DNA of 64,000 nt from Bacteroidota bacterium (GCA_031412295.1 JANOCU010000008.1:100921-164920), one strand, 5' to 3'. Shown: positions 2,458-63,681, counted from the first letter of the stretch. Notes: generated by a model not told the origin, from the letters alone. Translations and numbers: made by a program.

Positions 2458-3754
2458 AATTCTCCGGGTTGAATTTTAAACGTATAACAGCAGCAGTTTT
2501 TTTTGTGATGCGGAATTTATCAGCAATGCGATAGCCGGGAATCCACACAATTTCATCACCCGAAAGAATAACAGGTGCGCGTTCTTTTTTGTGCGTAGGC
2601 AATTTCATCTCGTTCAGAATATCGCTTACGTTTTTATGACCGTTCATGCCGAATGGAATTAAAGAATCACCTTCTTTCCACGTGCGCATGATTAAAGGCA
2701 AAATTACCAATGACGAATCAACCAGCGCCGACCATTTTTCATTCGGAATTTCATTCGGAATTTCTTCTTTCACAAAGCTGAATGCATCGGTAAGCGTTGT
2801 AGCCGGACTGTCTTTTTTTACAAGAAAAAGAAATTCACGGTCGCGGATCAATCGGTGCGAAGATGAAATTAATTCTGCGCCCGTTTCACCGTTAAGAATA
2901 GTTGAAATTGATGCCGATGCGAATTCAGGAAAACCATTTTTGCGTAAGAAGAAGCGCAGGTAAATTTCTGCTTCTGAAAAACCCCGGATTGCAGCAATTG
3001 AAATTTTCGTTTCGTTTGGATTCAAAATTTCGCAGCAGGTTTTTTCCCAATGGTCCATCGCTGCACCGATCAGCTTTTCAGATTCTTCTAAACGGTTAAA
3101 GCTGGCCTGGAATCCATCGTAAGTCTGCGGAATTTCTTTCATCAGCCACGGTAAAAGATGGTGACGAAAACGATTGCGTGTATATTTATCCGATTCATTG
3201 CTGCTGTCTTCCCGCCATGCTATATTATGTTCAGCGGCATAAGCAACAATTTCATCACGCGTAGTAAAAAGCATCGGCCGGATTAAATTTTTCTGCACAG
3301 GAGAAATTCCGGTAAGTCCTTTCACCCCTGTTCCGCGCGCAAAATTCAGCAAGGCCGTTTCAATTGAATCATCTTTATGATGTGCAGTAACAATTTTGCT
3401 GTAGCCATGTTGTTTGCAGCAAGCTTCAAAAAAATTATAGCGGATATTACGCGCTGCTGCCTGTATGGAATTTTCTCCGCTTGAAGCAAATGTTTCTTCG
3501 GTGCAACGTTCGAGGTAAAAAGGAGCATTCAGTTTTGTTGCAAGCTCCGAAACAAATTTTTCATCGTCATCCGATTCTTTCCCGCGCAATCGATAATTCA
3601 CATGCGCAATTGCAAAATCAATTTTATTCTTCACCAGCAAATCGCAAAGCACAACCGAATCCACGCCCCCGCTCACCGCAGCAAGCACAGGTTCCCCGGC
3701 TAAATAACCGCAAGAAGCAAAAAGGAAGTCATAGAATTGGTCCGGCCTGAGCAT
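2447..3754 (-). CDS. tilS: tRNA(Ile)-lysidine synthase
   Basis: 435 aa with the PP-loop motif SGGVDSVVL near the N-terminus. Overall TilS-like layout with a C-terminal substrate-binding region. Confidence 0.9.
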   Translation of the reverse strand: MLRPDQFYDFLFASCGYLAGEPVLAAVSGGVDSVVLCDLLVKNKIDFAIAHVNYRLRGKESDDDEKFVSELATKLNAPFYLERCTEETFASSGENSIQAAARNIRYNFFEACCKQHGYSKIVTAHHKDDSIETALLNFARGTGVKGLTGISPVQKNLIRPMLFTTRDEIVAYAAEHNIAWREDSSNESDKYTRNRFRHHLLPWLMKEIPQTYDGFQASFNRLEESEKLIGAAMDHWEKTCCEILNPNETKISIAAIRGFSEAEIYLRFFLRKNGFPEFASASISTILNGETGAELISSSHRLIRDREFLFLVKKDSPATTLTDAFSFVKEEIPNEIPNEKWSALVDSSLVILPLIMRTWKEGDSLIPFGMNGHKNVSDILNEMKLPTHKKERAPVILSGDEIVWIPGYRIADKFRITKKTAAVIRLKFNPENYGA

Positions 3755-9702: not shown

Positions 9703-9778
9703 GGTTGGTGGTTGTAAAAGGTTGGTGGTTGATTCAAAATTCAACATTTATCCCACCAACCTTTTACAACGACCAACC
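9703..9778. repeat. 26-bp inverted repeat (1 mismatch) of ggttggt words with a 24-nt loop, directly upstream of hemH
   Basis: Left arm ggttggtggttgtaaaaggttggtgg (9703-9728) pairs with right arm ccaccaaccttttacaacgaccaacc (9753-9778). The loop contains attcaaaattcaacatt, a motif also present at 39790-39813 (other strand) and 45715-45730. Confidence 0.9.
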
Positions 9779-9864: not shown

Positions 9865-9903
9865 AATCACCAATCACCTCCGCCGCGGCGGACACCAATC
9901 ACC
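9865..9903. repeat. 39-bp repeat copy 1: caccaat words around the palindrome tccgccgcggcgga
   Basis: aatcaccaatcacctccgccgcggcggacaccaatcacc is identical to 23770-23808 and in the same orientation. The 14-bp perfect palindrome lies at 9879-9892. Confidence 0.9.
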
Positions 9904-23769: not shown

Positions 23770-23808
23770 AATCACCAATCACCTCCGCCGCGGCGGACAC
23801 CAATCACC
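23770..23808. repeat. 39-bp repeat copy 2 (identical to 9865-9903)
   Basis: aatcaccaatcacctccgccgcggcggacaccaatcacc, with the palindrome core at 23784-23797. It lies 35 bp downstream of the vWA gene stop. Confidence 0.9.
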
Positions 23809-60745: not shown

Positions 60746-62584
<1,839 letters not shown>

Positions 62585-62650
62585 GCACGCCCATAAAAAA
62601 ATGTACGAATTACGATGTCGAATTACTTCCCACTATTCTCTATTCACTTT

Positions 62651-62732
62651 TCACCTGTCACCTGTCACCCGTCACCCGTCACCCGTCACCAATCACCAAT
62701 CACCAATCACCACCAACCACCAACCACCAACC
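62651..62732. repeat. Stepwise-mutating heptamer array
   Basis: The units run (tcacctg)x2 (tcacccg)x3 (tcaccaa)x3 tcaccac (caaccac)x2 caacc, with the 7-nt phase uninterrupted. Confidence 0.95.
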
Positions 62733-62757
62733 TTTTTTTCCTTTTATCTTTACCGCC

Positions 62758-63681
62758 GTGAAAGTTTTCAATAACATCTCCGAATTTCTTCCTGTTGCGA
62801 ATCCAGTGGTGACTACCGGCACTTTTGATGGCGTACACCTTGGGCACCAGCAGATTATAAAACGATTAAAAGAAGTGGCTTCAAAAATTGGTGGCGAAAC
62901 GGTGCTGCTTACTTTCTTTCCGCATCCGAGAATGGTGCTTTTTCCGGATTATAAACCGTTGCTGATCAATACGCTTGATGAAAAAACGGCTTTGCTGGAA
63001 AAAGCAGGCATCGATAATTTGATCATTCATCCGTTTAACCGTGAATTTTCGATGCTGAGCTCAAAGGAATTTATTTCGGATATTCTTGTGAATTCGCTAC
63101 AAACTAAAAAGCTGGTGATTGGCTACGATCATCATTTTGGGAAAAATAGGGAAGGGAGCTTCGGTCATTTAAAGGAATTTGGTCCGATTTATGGATTTGA
63201 TGTGGAGGAAATTCCGGCGCAGGAAGTGGAACATACGGGAGTGAGCTCGACCAGGATAAGGCAGGCGCTGACAAAAGGCGATGTAGAAACCGCGAATTCA
63301 TTTTTGGGATATAAATACCTGCTTTCGGGAACTGTTGTAAAAGGAAGAATGATTGGCAGATCGATTGATTTTCCGACAGCGAACTTACAGGTGCATGATC
63401 CGTATAAATTAATACCTGCAGATGGCGTGTATGCGGTGCGCGTGAAAAGAGGAACGACAGAATTAAACGGAATGCTCAATATAGGTATGCGTCCGACTGT
63501 AGATGGAAAAGCAAGAACGATCGAAGTAAATATCCTCGATTTCAATGCTGATCTTTATGGTGAAACACTTACCTTGGAGTTTGTAAAACGTCTGCGTGAC
63601 GAAATAAAATTCGACGGCATCGAATCACTGAAACAACAACTGTTGAAAGACAGAGAACAAACGAGAGAAATTCTTTCTTAA
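62758..63681 (+). CDS. ribF: Bifunctional riboflavin kinase / FAD synthetase
   Basis: The GTG at 62758 gives (M)KVFNNISEF...TTGTFDGVHLGHQ. The kinase part contains GRSIDFPTANL. The track start at 62554 translates repeat DNA. Confidence 0.9.
   Translation: MKVFNNISEFLPVANPVVTTGTFDGVHLGHQQIIKRLKEVASKIGGETVLLTFFPHPRMVLFPDYKPLLINTLDEKTALLEKAGIDNLIIHPFNREFSMLSSKEFISDILVNSLQTKKLVIGYDHHFGKNREGSFGHLKEFGPIYGFDVEEIPAQEVEHTGVSSTRIRQALTKGDVETANSFLGYKYLLSGTVVKGRMIGRSIDFPTANLQVHDPYKLIPADGVYAVRVKRGTTELNGMLNIGMRPTVDGKARTIEVNILDFNADLYGETLTLEFVKRLRDEIKFDGIESLKQQLLKDREQTREILS

What the first reader, a model, noticed from the sequence alone, without database searches (positions are those of the whole stretch)
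62651..62732. Heptamer array that mutates stepwise along its length while keeping phase
Seen: (tcacctg)x2, (tcacccg)x3, (tcaccaa)x3, tcaccac, (caaccac)x2, caacc. Each block differs from the previous one by one or two substitutions, and each variant is itself amplified 2-3 times. The 7-nt register is never broken over 82 bp. The terminal variants are the very words that form separate arrays elsewhere: tcaccaa at 9865 and 23770, and ccaccaa at 9753 and 43225. This looks like a fossil record of how one word family evolves into another by mutation followed by local re-amplification (slippage or templated copying). It links families that otherwise look unrelated.
Basis: seen in the sequence. Interest (0 to 1): 0.5.

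Follow-up and report, generated by a model that had tools for sequence, protein, structure and literature searches.

The report
Graded heptamer repeat upstream of ribF
The stepwise-changing 7-base repeat is real, but it is an unusually tidy example of a known, fast-changing kind of bacterial spacer repeat built from a small shared set of words, not a unique record of how new repeat families are born.

Summary
The array at 62651-62732 reads exactly as described. Its lag-7 self-match is 69 of 75 (P about 2e-23), and its unit order is far more sorted than chance (p = 1.4e-5).

It lies in the 509-bp divergent spacer between atpD and ribF and ends 12 nt before a conserved Bacteroidota -7 promoter box, so it is non-coding. 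The genome is an uncultured Bacteroidia MAG of 5.47 Mb. It holds about 270 period-7 arrays, 97% of them non-coding.

abutting blocks genome-wide differ by 0-2 in-phase substitutions in 32 of 42 cases (null 2.5%). The closest relative carries an orthologous, in-phase array with other variants and copy numbers.
- **Against a "birthplace of families" reading:**
  - Variant words are almost always words used at other loci (48 of 52, against 10.4 expected).
  - The vocabulary is restricted (60 words, against about 221 expected).
  - The last junction is better read as a 3-nt phase shift, and its 15-mer recurs at four other loci.

Verdict: a compound heptanucleotide simple-sequence repeat, STRR-like and of the LSSR5-11 class, already described in Cyanobacteria, Xanthomonas and some Bacteroidetes. 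This scan has noted the same class before on many other genomes. Interest is low to moderate.

The parts
62631..62650 (+). Degenerate leading units in the same 7-nt register (cactatt ctctatt cactttt)
   Evidence: TRF period-7 row 62631-62654. The tolerant lag-7 scan joins them to the array.
62651..62664 (+). Block A: tcacctg x2
   Evidence: The word family ACAGGTG has 29 exact runs genome-wide.
62665..62685 (+). Block B: tcacccg x3, 1 substitution from block A
   Evidence: The A/B junction 14-mers occur 22 + 17 times in the genome.
62686..62706 (+). Block C: tcaccaa x3, 2 in-phase substitutions from block B
   Evidence: AATCACC is the commonest run family, with 36 runs.
62707..62732 (+). Block D/E: either tcaccac, caaccac x2, caacc read in phase, or tca + ccaccaa x3 + cc (1 substitution and a 3-nt phase shift)
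   Evidence: The junction 15-mer caatcaccaccaacc recurs at 4 other loci. This block is absent from the L001 ortholog.
62731..62743 (+). ccttttttccTT-type outer clamp: right half of a perfect 13-nt inverted repeat with 62347-62359
   Evidence: I1, 100% complementary. The same position in L002 is the base of a spacer-wide hairpin.
62745..62752 (+). Predicted Bacteroidota -7 promoter box (TATCTTTA), 5 nt before the ribF GTG
   Evidence: A TAnnTTT(G/A)-like box (gAccTTTG in L003) lies 3-8 nt before the start in all 12 species compared. Genome-wide, TAnnTTTG peaks 0-9 nt before start codons. No transcript data.
62758..63681 (+). ribF (bifunctional riboflavin kinase / FAD synthetase), GTG start
   Evidence: Pfam FAD_syn 5e-48 and Flavokinase 9e-43. 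Relatives align from residue 1.
60746..62248 (-). atpD (ATP synthase beta subunit), divergent neighbour
   Evidence: Pfam ATP-synt_ab 6e-63.
62329..62431 (+). Left-hand G-rich word array (gggacgg/gggacga words with A-runs)
   Evidence: The same words form the left arm of the L002 hairpin.
62463..62593 (+). Two hairpins belonging to a dispersed repeat element
   Evidence: Fold z = -4.6. At least 12 further copies in G000, and copies in G001, G002 and G012. Sub-threshold Flavo-1 hit, 25.7 bits against 42.
62601..62626 (+). 13-mer words atgtacgaattacg x1.9 (three copies in L001)

Best explanation
The feature is a compound (interrupted) heptanucleotide simple-sequence repeat. It is one of about 270 period-7 arrays that fill the non-coding spacers of this uncultured Bacteroidia genome.

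Position. It forms the C-rich, structure-free right-hand part of a mosaic spacer: G-rich words, dispersed hairpins, 13-mer words, then the heptamer array. It ends just upstream of the ribF core promoter, so it is probably not part of the ribF mRNA or protein.

How it changes. Blocks grow and shrink by unit gain and loss in the 7-nt register, the process usually ascribed to replication slippage. Neighbouring blocks differ by one or two in-phase base changes. The words that get amplified are not random mutants. They belong to a small vocabulary shared by arrays all over the genome, and some junctions recur elsewhere. The graded look is therefore a walk among favoured or exchanged words, not the birthplace of new families.

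Function. Most likely it has no sequence-specific function and is fast-turning-over spacer DNA.

Shown: periodicity, ordering, non-coding position, genome-wide class, vocabulary restriction, turnover between species.

Inferred: slippage as the mechanism, promoter position, lack of function.
For: - Periodicity and ordering.
- Genome-wide class: 201 arrays at lag 7 and 88 at lag 8, against 9 or fewer at lags 1-6 and 10-13.
- Non-coding position: 262 of 271 arrays are non-coding, and they are spread over co-directional, divergent and convergent spacers in proportion to spacer bases (0.61/0.23/0.165 against 0.59/0.23/0.17).
- Small in-phase steps between abutting blocks: 32 of 42 against a 2.5% null.
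- Turnover at the same locus:
  - L001 (ribF 96% aa) has an in-phase array with interspersed variants and other copy numbers.
  - L002 (89%) has other words.
  - L003 (88%) has no array.
  - Other orthologous arrays keep the word and change copy number.
- Restricted vocabulary: 60 majority words against about 221 expected. Variant blocks are words at other loci in 48 of 52 transitions against 10.4. Junctions recur.
- Promoter: a conserved -7 box lies between the array and the GTG in 12 species.
- Structure: the array strand has zero predicted structure.
- Literature:
  - Heptanucleotide repeats are the most abundant long SSR class in many prokaryotes, with polymerase slippage proposed (Mrazek 2007, as summarised in PMC4679880 and PMC4692102).
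  - Heterogeneous heptamer repeats show length and sequence variation between Xanthomonas species (PMC4692102).
  - Mixed heptamer repeats occur in Bacteroidetes spacers that close relatives lack (PMC4679880).
Against: - No strain-level or read-level data could be obtained, so unit gain and loss is seen only between species, and slippage itself is inferred.
- The restricted vocabulary, the recurrent out-of-phase junction and the G-left/C-right orientation bias (162:80) are not explained by plain slippage. They point to an extra process: exchange, dispersal or selection.
- Genome-wide, clustering of identical units into blocks is only weak (477 runs against 507 expected), so this locus is an extreme case.
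- The TSS is predicted, not measured. If transcription starts upstream, the array would lie in a leader.
Confidence: 0.7

Rival explanations
1. Mosaic by copying. The blocks were not made in place by point mutation. They were brought in from other arrays (ectopic templated repair or recombination aligned on the shared tcacc core) or as dispersed modules, and then slightly amplified.
For: - Block words are ranks 1, 3, 4 and 12 of the genome's vocabulary.
- Variant words occur elsewhere in 48 of 52 transitions against 10.4 expected.
- The identical 15-mer junction caatcaccaccaacc, usually followed by a T-run, is found at 4 other loci.
- The (ccaccaa)n block is missing from the L001 ortholog.
Against: - The first two junctions are in phase with 1-2 changes.
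- tcacccg and tcacctg both sit in the L001 ortholog at the aligned position, so they predate the species split at this locus.
- No donor tract longer than the words themselves was identified.
- No enzyme or element that moves words was found. The 14-nt palindrome inserts into arrays of many different words and does not carry them.
Confidence: 0.25
2. First reader's strong form. This locus records the actual origin of word families: new words arose here by mutation and re-amplification, and later founded the separate arrays elsewhere.
For: Ordered minimal-path gradient. In-phase small steps are common genome-wide.
Against: - All four words are already abundant at 9-36 other sites, and the CACC-type words also occur in G002 of the same genus.
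- The junctions recur at other loci.
- No polarity of degeneracy along arrays that would give a time axis (p = 0.06, and in the opposite direction to this locus).
- The ortholog has the same words interspersed, not graded.
Confidence: 0.05
3. Cis-regulatory array. The tandem heptamers are binding sites for a regulator of ribF, either a DNA-binding protein acting upstream of the promoter or a single-strand-binding S1/CSP-type protein if the array is transcribed.
For: - The array abuts the core promoter.
- Start-proximal arrays are C-rich on the sense strand 90:44.
- A similar forward orientation upstream of start codons led MacGregor to propose translational regulation (PMC4679880).
Against: - The array is absent or replaced by unrelated words in species with 88-89% identical RibF.
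- Arrays occupy all spacer types in proportion to length, convergent ones included.
- Only 48 of 173 start-proximal arrays have a -7 box between array and start, and 43 abut the start codon, so there is no uniform geometry.
- The orientation bias is equally well described as a strand-symmetric G-left/C-right rule independent of transcription.
Confidence: 0.08
4. Contingency (phase-variation) switch. Copy-number changes of the repeat switch ribF expression on and off.
For: A slippage-prone repeat next to a promoter.
Against: - The array lies upstream of the -7 box, not between promoter elements or in the reading frame.
- ribF is a single-copy housekeeping gene.
- A 7-nt unit is atypical. Phase-variable SSRs mostly have 1-5-nt units (PMC4692102).
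Confidence: 0.02
5. Coding N-terminal extension of RibF. The 375-aa ORF from GTG 62554 runs through the array in frame.
For: The frame is open through the array in both the window and L001.
Against: - The array has no TAA, TAG or TGA in any + frame, so openness follows trivially from its near G-free composition.
- The upstream peptide is not conserved.
- Relatives align from residue 1 of the 307-aa form, with the -7 box just upstream.
- The FAD_syn domain starts at residue 16.
- No Pfam hit to the extension.
Confidence: 0.02

Closest known systems
Long simple sequence repeats with 5-11-nt units (LSSR5-11) of prokaryotes, heptanucleotides being the commonest class (Mrazek, Guo and Shah 2007, as summarised in PMC4679880 and PMC4692102)
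   Same: Head-to-tail 7-nt units, non-coding location, genome-wide excess of period 7 over neighbouring periods, patchy distribution among related genomes, and slippage as the proposed mechanism.
   Different: This is a previously unexamined uncultured Bacteroidia lineage. The locus is a four-word compound array, and its words come from a vocabulary far smaller than random seeding would give.
GGGAATC / GGGGA(C/T)T heptamer repeats of Xanthomonas and Nostoc (Rehm et al. 2015, PMC4692102)
   Same: Perfect and heterogeneous units mixed in one array. The arrays lie mostly between the same genes in related species, with extensive length and sequence variation. They are often present as convergent inverted pairs; here 38% of arrays have a reverse-complement partner.
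   Different: The focal array is C/A-rich with little G-quadruplex potential of the GGG type, and it has no complementary partner in its spacer. Many unrelated word families coexist here, where those genomes have one dominant motif.
TAACTGA and other heptamer direct repeats in Beggiatoaceae, Cyanobacteria and five Bacteroidetes (MacGregor 2015, PMC4679880)
   Same: Intergenic arrays with an orientation bias relative to the downstream start codon. Bacteroidetes spacers hold several different heptamer repeats that close relatives lack, and contigs break at the repeats.
   Different: The words differ. The bias here (2:1) is weaker than the 12 of 14 forward repeat sets reported for F. litoralis. 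The predicted promoter places this array outside the mRNA.
STRR (short tandemly repeated repetitive) heptamers of heterocystous cyanobacteria, and the small dispersed palindromes embedded in them
   Same: A few heptamer families are repeated at many intergenic loci. In this genome a 14-nt palindrome is embedded 87 times in such arrays.
   Different: Different phylum and words. The focal array itself holds no embedded palindrome.
Compound or interrupted microsatellites and minisatellite variant-repeat maps of eukaryotes (established knowledge)
   Same: Blocks of variant units arranged along one array, explained by point mutation plus local unit duplication.
   Different: Here the variant words are shared with hundreds of other loci, which is not expected for independent microsatellites.

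Membership tests
Prokaryotic heptanucleotide SSR (LSSR5-11 / STRR-like, broad sense) | Head-to-tail iteration of a 5-11-nt unit, at least 3 copies, far beyond chance | tested here: met
   11.7 units; lag-7 match 69/75, P about 2e-23
Prokaryotic heptanucleotide SSR (LSSR5-11 / STRR-like, broad sense) | Non-coding location | tested here: met
   Lies between atpD and the ribF GTG. Relatives' RibF starts at the same residue. No Pfam hit on spacer ORFs. Genome-wide, 262 of 271 arrays are non-coding.
Prokaryotic heptanucleotide SSR (LSSR5-11 / STRR-like, broad sense) | Genome-wide excess of period 7 over neighbouring periods | tested here: met
   201 arrays at lag 7 and 88 at lag 8, against 0-9 at lags 1-6 and 10-13
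Prokaryotic heptanucleotide SSR (LSSR5-11 / STRR-like, broad sense) | Copy number and unit sequence vary between related genomes at the same locus | tested here: met
   Window compared with L001, L002 and L003. Three further orthologous arrays compared between G000 and G001.
Prokaryotic heptanucleotide SSR (LSSR5-11 / STRR-like, broad sense) | Length polymorphism within a population (slippage in action) | not testable with these tools
No identical-protein contigs. No close relative in metagenome contigs.
STRR in the strict sense (cyanobacterial STRR1-3) | Cyanobacterial host and the specific STRR heptamers | tested here: not met
   The host is Bacteroidota: a T9SS sorting domain and relatives titled Bacteroidia. 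The top word families listed are different words.
Convergent (inverted) heptamer-repeat pairs / repeat-arm hairpins | A reverse-complement array of the same words within the same spacer, giving a long hairpin | tested here: not met
   No partner at up to 3 mismatches per 14 nt. The whole-spacer fold has z = -0.9. Only a 13-nt outer inverted repeat remains. The feature is met in the L002 ortholog (z = -9) and in 103 of 271 arrays of this genome.
Phase-variable contingency SSR | Repeat inside the reading frame or between the core promoter elements, so that unit changes switch expression | tested here: not met
   The array ends 12 nt upstream of the conserved -7 box and 25 nt upstream of the GTG.
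Small dispersed palindromes nested in heptamer repeats (Nostoc SDR-like) | A short palindromic insert interrupting the array | tested here: not met
   No palindrome inside 62631-62732. Elsewhere in the genome there are 87 such inserts.

The most novel reading that the evidence does not exclude
The word arrays of this lineage are not free-running microsatellites. They form a grammar-bound, dispersed repeat system in which an unknown copy or templated-repair process moves 7-nt words and whole junctions between spacers.

Four observations fit this: the restricted vocabulary, identical out-of-phase junctions at five loci, the G-left/C-right orientation rule, and a 14-nt palindrome with 4-nt flank duplications inserted 87 times into arrays.

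On this reading the graded array is a recombination mosaic that exposes the process. The same process could explain why bacteria favour 7-nt repeats.
Probability: 0.2. Interest if true: 0.6.

Novelty: new member of a known kind. Interest (0 to 1): 0.28.

Why it matters
In itself it matters little. It adds a Bacteroidia lineage to the list of bacteria whose spacers are filled with heptanucleotide repeats, and it gives a clean textbook example of a compound array.

The useful by-products are quantitative:
- In-phase one- or two-base steps between blocks are the rule.
- The words are drawn from a vocabulary about four times smaller than chance, including recurrent junctions.

That argues against pure random mutation plus slippage. 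It gives a concrete handle (word sharing between loci) on the unexplained excess of 7-nt repeats in prokaryotes. It also warns annotators that long ORFs running through such arrays, as at ribF, are artefacts of composition.

Tried and rejected
- **Strain-level variation could not be tested.** An exact-pattern scan and a protein scan of metagenome contigs found nothing closer than 62%. The look-up of encoding contigs had no record for atpD or ribF.
- **Polar growth (old degenerate end, young perfect end).** No consistent asymmetry over 127 runs (p = 0.06, opposite in sign to this locus).
- **Preference for 3-unit (21 bp, two helical turns) blocks.** Run lengths fall off geometrically (304, 81, 24, 7 ...), with no excess at 3.
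- **Word network by single substitutions.** 91 of 92 necklaces fall in one component, but random word sets give components of 38-81, so the test has little power.
- **Unit-order permutation over all arrays.** It is biased because detection by self-match selects similar neighbours. I replaced it with the exact-run adjacency test.
- **Focal array as one arm of a present-day hairpin.** No complementary partner, and the whole-spacer fold is not better than shuffles.
- **Known RNA families.** Only a sub-threshold Flavo-1 hit on the neighbouring hairpin element.
- **Spacer ORFs.** No Pfam match.
- **Lead from earlier notes that heptamer arrays go with PF05635 (S23p) cassettes.** Gene counts are 8, 16, 13, 8, 6, 0 in G000, G002, G012, G010, G011, G016. 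Array densities are about 5, 6, 2.5, 0, 0, 0 per 100 kb. G010 and G011 have the gene but no arrays in the 80-100 kb sampled, so the two are not tightly coupled in this genus.
- **One literature search failed on a format error.** Mrazek 2007 was therefore cited only through the two papers that summarise it.

Full report
**1. The observation**

The sequence at 62651-62732 reads tcacctg x2, tcacccg x3, tcaccaa x3, tcaccac, caaccac x2, caacc, exactly as reported. Tandem Repeats Finder lists the same arrays.
- Self-match at lag 7 is 69 of 75 positions, against 0.21-0.44 at other lags. With the array's own skewed composition (C 42, A 24, T 11, G 5) the binomial probability is about 2e-23.
- A random order of the 11 full units gives a summed neighbour distance as small as observed (6) with p = 1.4e-5.
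- The order of the five word types is one of the 2 of 60 distinct minimal paths.

Three corrections apply.
- The register begins about 20 nt earlier, with degenerate units.
- The last junction is ambiguous. In phase it costs three substitutions. Read as tcaccaa x3, tca, ccaccaa x3, cc, it costs one substitution and a 3-nt phase shift, and TRF also needs indels there.
- The cited sister sites are weaker than stated. tcaccaa at 9865 and 23770 is 2 + 2 units around a 14-nt palindrome. 'ccaccaa' at 9753 and 43225 is a single word plus degenerate reverse-complement words.

**2. Where it lies**

The array lies in the 509-bp spacer between atpD (60746-62248, minus strand) and ribF (GTG 62758-63681, plus strand), both identified by Pfam.

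The 375-aa ORF that runs through the array is an artefact.
- The array has no stop triplet in any plus-strand frame because it is nearly free of G.
- The upstream peptide is not conserved.
- Relatives align from residue 1 of the 307-aa form.
- There is no Pfam hit on the extension.

In all 12 species compared, a Bacteroidota-type -7 box (TAnnTTTG, or a one-base variant as in L003) lies 3-8 nt before the ribF start. In the window it is TATCTTTA at 62745-62752. Genome-wide this box peaks 0-9 nt before start codons, which suggests many leaderless mRNAs. The array therefore ends 12 nt upstream of the predicted core promoter. This is an inference, since no transcript data exist.

The array strand has no predicted secondary structure at all (MFE 0). 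It sits next to two strong hairpins (z = -4.6) that belong to a dispersed element with at least 12 further copies in the genome.

**3. The genome-wide class**

The window is C8:100921-164920 of a 5.47-Mb, 33-contig, 41% GC genome. It is an uncultured Bacteroidia lineage (T9SS sorting domain; relatives' titles).

A self-match scan finds 201 arrays at lag 7 and 88 at lag 8, against 9 or fewer at lags 1-6 and 10-13. A more tolerant scan gives 271 period-7 arrays.
- 262 of the 271 are non-coding.
- They are distributed over co-directional, divergent and convergent spacers in proportion to spacer bases.
- Of 173 arrays within 150 nt upstream of a start, 48 have a -7 box between array and start, 43 abut the start codon, and 82 have neither. 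There is no uniform functional geometry.

There is an orientation bias. Arrays in the left half of a spacer are G-rich and those in the right half are C-rich on either strand (162 against 80). Equivalently, start-proximal arrays are C-rich on the sense strand 90:44. The present spacer obeys it: G-rich words on the left, C-rich heptamers on the right. Arrays in one spacer are not independent, so the significance is overstated.

38% of arrays have a reverse-complement partner within 400 nt (8% in controls). The focal array has none.

The class is patchy:

| Genome | Kinship | Sampled | Period-7 arrays |
|---|---|---|---|
| G002 | same genus | 100 kb | 6 |
| G012 | same genus | 40 kb | 1 |
| G010 | same genus | 100 kb | 0 |
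| G016 | same genus | 100 kb | 0 |
| G011 | same genus | 80 kb | 0 |
| G024 | other family | 100 kb | 3 |
| G029 | other family | 100 kb | 3 |
| G030 | other family | 100 kb | 1 |
| G027 | other family | 80 kb | 0 |

Across 769 kb around ribF in 160 diverse Bacteroidota loci there are 21 arrays at lag 7, 7 at lag 8, and 0-2 at lags 5, 6, 9 and 10.

**4.

The check proposed was whether adjacent blocks differ by single steps more often than expected.

A permutation test over all multi-variant arrays makes this locus the most ordered of 98. That test is biased by how arrays are detected, and block clustering overall is weak (477 runs against 507 expected).

I therefore used exact runs (at least 2.4 copies; 432 runs) and asked about runs that abut, whatever their similarity.
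- Of 42 pairs, 32 differ by 0-2 in-phase substitutions (random expectation 2.5%).
- 34 of 42 are best aligned in phase.

Small in-phase steps are therefore a rule of this genome. There are 28 two-block, 4 three-block and 2 four-block loci, and this is the only one with four different words.

The words themselves are not random mutants.
- The four amplified words rank 1, 3, 4 and 12 among the genome's run families.
- The 271 arrays use only 60 majority words, where about 221 are expected for random non-coding heptamers.
- Over 52 directed transitions at distance 1-2, the neighbouring word is an array word at another locus 48 times, against 10.4 expected.
- The tcacctg/tcacccg junction 14-mers occur 22 and 17 times in the genome.
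- The out-of-phase 15-mer caatcaccaccaacc recurs at four other loci, often followed by a T-run as here.

The graded array is thus assembled from a recurrent grammar. It cannot be read as the place where the families arose.

Two further checks were negative. There is no polarity of decay along arrays that would supply a time axis, and there is no preference for three-unit blocks.

**5. History at this locus**

- **L001** (RibF 96% identical). It has the same spacer layout and an array that aligns in phase with the window's tcacctg/tcacccg part, but with variants interspersed (tcacccg, ccacccg, tcacctg, ccaccct, tcacttg, tcacctt). It holds single caaccaa and tcacca words where the window has three-copy blocks, no (ccaccaa)n block, and a different tctcatg-type array next to the promoter. 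The 13-mer atgtacgaattacg is present three times, against 1.9 in the window.
- **L002** (89%). It has the same G-rich left words, but its right arm is their reverse complement, and the whole spacer folds into one hairpin (-59.6 kcal/mol, z = -9).
- **L003** (88%). It has no array.
- **More distant genus members.** They carry unrelated 8-nt or 21-nt arrays abutting the same -7 box.
- **The window.** Only the outermost 13 bp of the two sides are still perfectly complementary (62347-62359 with 62731-62743), and the whole spacer folds no better than shuffles (z = -0.9).

I infer that the heptamer array occupies the right arm of a formerly hairpin-like mosaic spacer, and has since drifted and expanded on its own. 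Three other orthologous arrays compared between G000 and G001 keep their word and change copy number and variants.

**6. Mechanism**

- **Shown:** in-register unit gain and loss and in-phase base changes between species; a restricted, shared vocabulary; no conservation of the array.
- **Inferred:** replication slippage in the 7-nt register as the engine. This is the explanation proposed for the general excess of heptanucleotide repeats (Mrazek 2007, as cited in PMC4679880 and PMC4692102).
- **Open:** whether the vocabulary constraint comes from selection or propensity for certain words, or from exchange between arrays.
- **Function:** a sequence-specific regulatory role is unlikely, given the turnover and the spacer-type neutrality. 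A phase-variation role does not fit the position.

**7. Comparison with what is known**

The class is described.
- Heptanucleotide LSSR5-11 (Mrazek 2007).
- Heterogeneous GGGANTN repeats with convergent pairs and between-species variation in Xanthomonas and Nostoc (PMC4692102).
- TAACTGA and other heptamer repeats in Bacteroidetes spacers that relatives lack, with contigs ending in the repeats (PMC4679880).
- Cyanobacterial STRR, and palindromes nested in heptamer repeats (from my own knowledge).

This scan has also noted STRR-like arrays on many other genomes. The locus is a new member of a known kind.

The leads from earlier notes were checked.
- The palindrome-in-array observation holds: 87 copies of a 14-nt palindrome, in arrays of many words, with a 4-nt duplication of the flank.
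- Inverted pairing holds for 38% of arrays, but not for this one.
- The PF05635 link is not tight within this genus.

**8. Verdict**

The kind is known. Interest is 0.28.

The residual novelty lies in the restricted vocabulary and the recurrent junctions, which plain slippage does not explain.

Noticed in passing
window 9879-9892 and 23784-23797; genome-wide 87 sites: A 14-nt palindrome (t CCGCCGCGGCGG a) is embedded 87 times in word arrays of at least ten different word families. Usually the 4 nt of the word before the insert are repeated after it, like a target-site duplication. This resembles the small dispersed palindromes nested in heptamer repeats of Nostoc.
   Followed up: partly
window 62463-62593: The two hairpins in the atpD/ribF spacer belong to a dispersed element. 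It has at least 12 further copies in this genome (80-97% identity), and copies in three other species of the genus. L001 carries different hairpins at the same place between conserved flanks. There is a weak sub-threshold match to Rfam Flavo-1 (25.7 bits, gathering 42).
   Followed up: partly
window 62745-62760; genome-wide: The Bacteroidota -7 box TAnnTTTG ends 0-9 nt before the start codon at 154 genes, the largest bin, including ribF in all 12 species compared. This suggests widespread leaderless mRNAs in this lineage.
   Followed up: partly
L002:2775-2995 and the L005 spacer (2696-3000): The orthologous atpD/ribF spacers of two other species are long hairpins whose arms are complementary word arrays (gggacga words in L002, 8-nt gaaatgct/gatgtgct words in L005). 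The L002 fold has z = -9. Different words with the same architecture at one locus imply rapid arm turnover with complementarity kept.
   Followed up: partly
genome-wide (G000): Orientation rule: arrays in the left half of a spacer are G-rich and those in the right half are C-rich, read on either strand (162 against 80). The rule holds in co-directional spacers, in most of divergent ones, and partly in convergent ones. It is unexplained.
   Followed up: partly
G000 C8:26309-26453, C5:425265-425373, C5:4745-4825, C32:20612-20672: Four AATCACC arrays (3 to 15 units) are each preceded by the same terminator-like hairpin (tcattagg..gtttgcgaaac..cctaatga) and an A-run, which suggests a composite dispersed module.
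   Followed up: no
G000 C3:4-124 and C5:57-141: Contigs begin inside long heptamer arrays (17 and 12 units), so arrays break the assembly and the array count is a lower bound.
   Followed up: no
window 62325-62435 (+) and the minus strand of 62707-62732: The left word array has many GGGG tracts with short loops. The complement of the ccaccaa block reads ggttggtggttgg, similar to two-tetrad quadruplex formers. In both cases the G-rich strand is the antisense strand of the nearest gene. Not tested.
   Followed up: no
G000, G002, G010, G011, G012, G016: PF05635 (23S rRNA IVS four-helix-bundle protein) genes number 8, 16, 8, 6, 13 and 0 in these genomes. G010 and G011 have the genes but no period-7 arrays in the 80-100 kb sampled.
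   Followed up: partly
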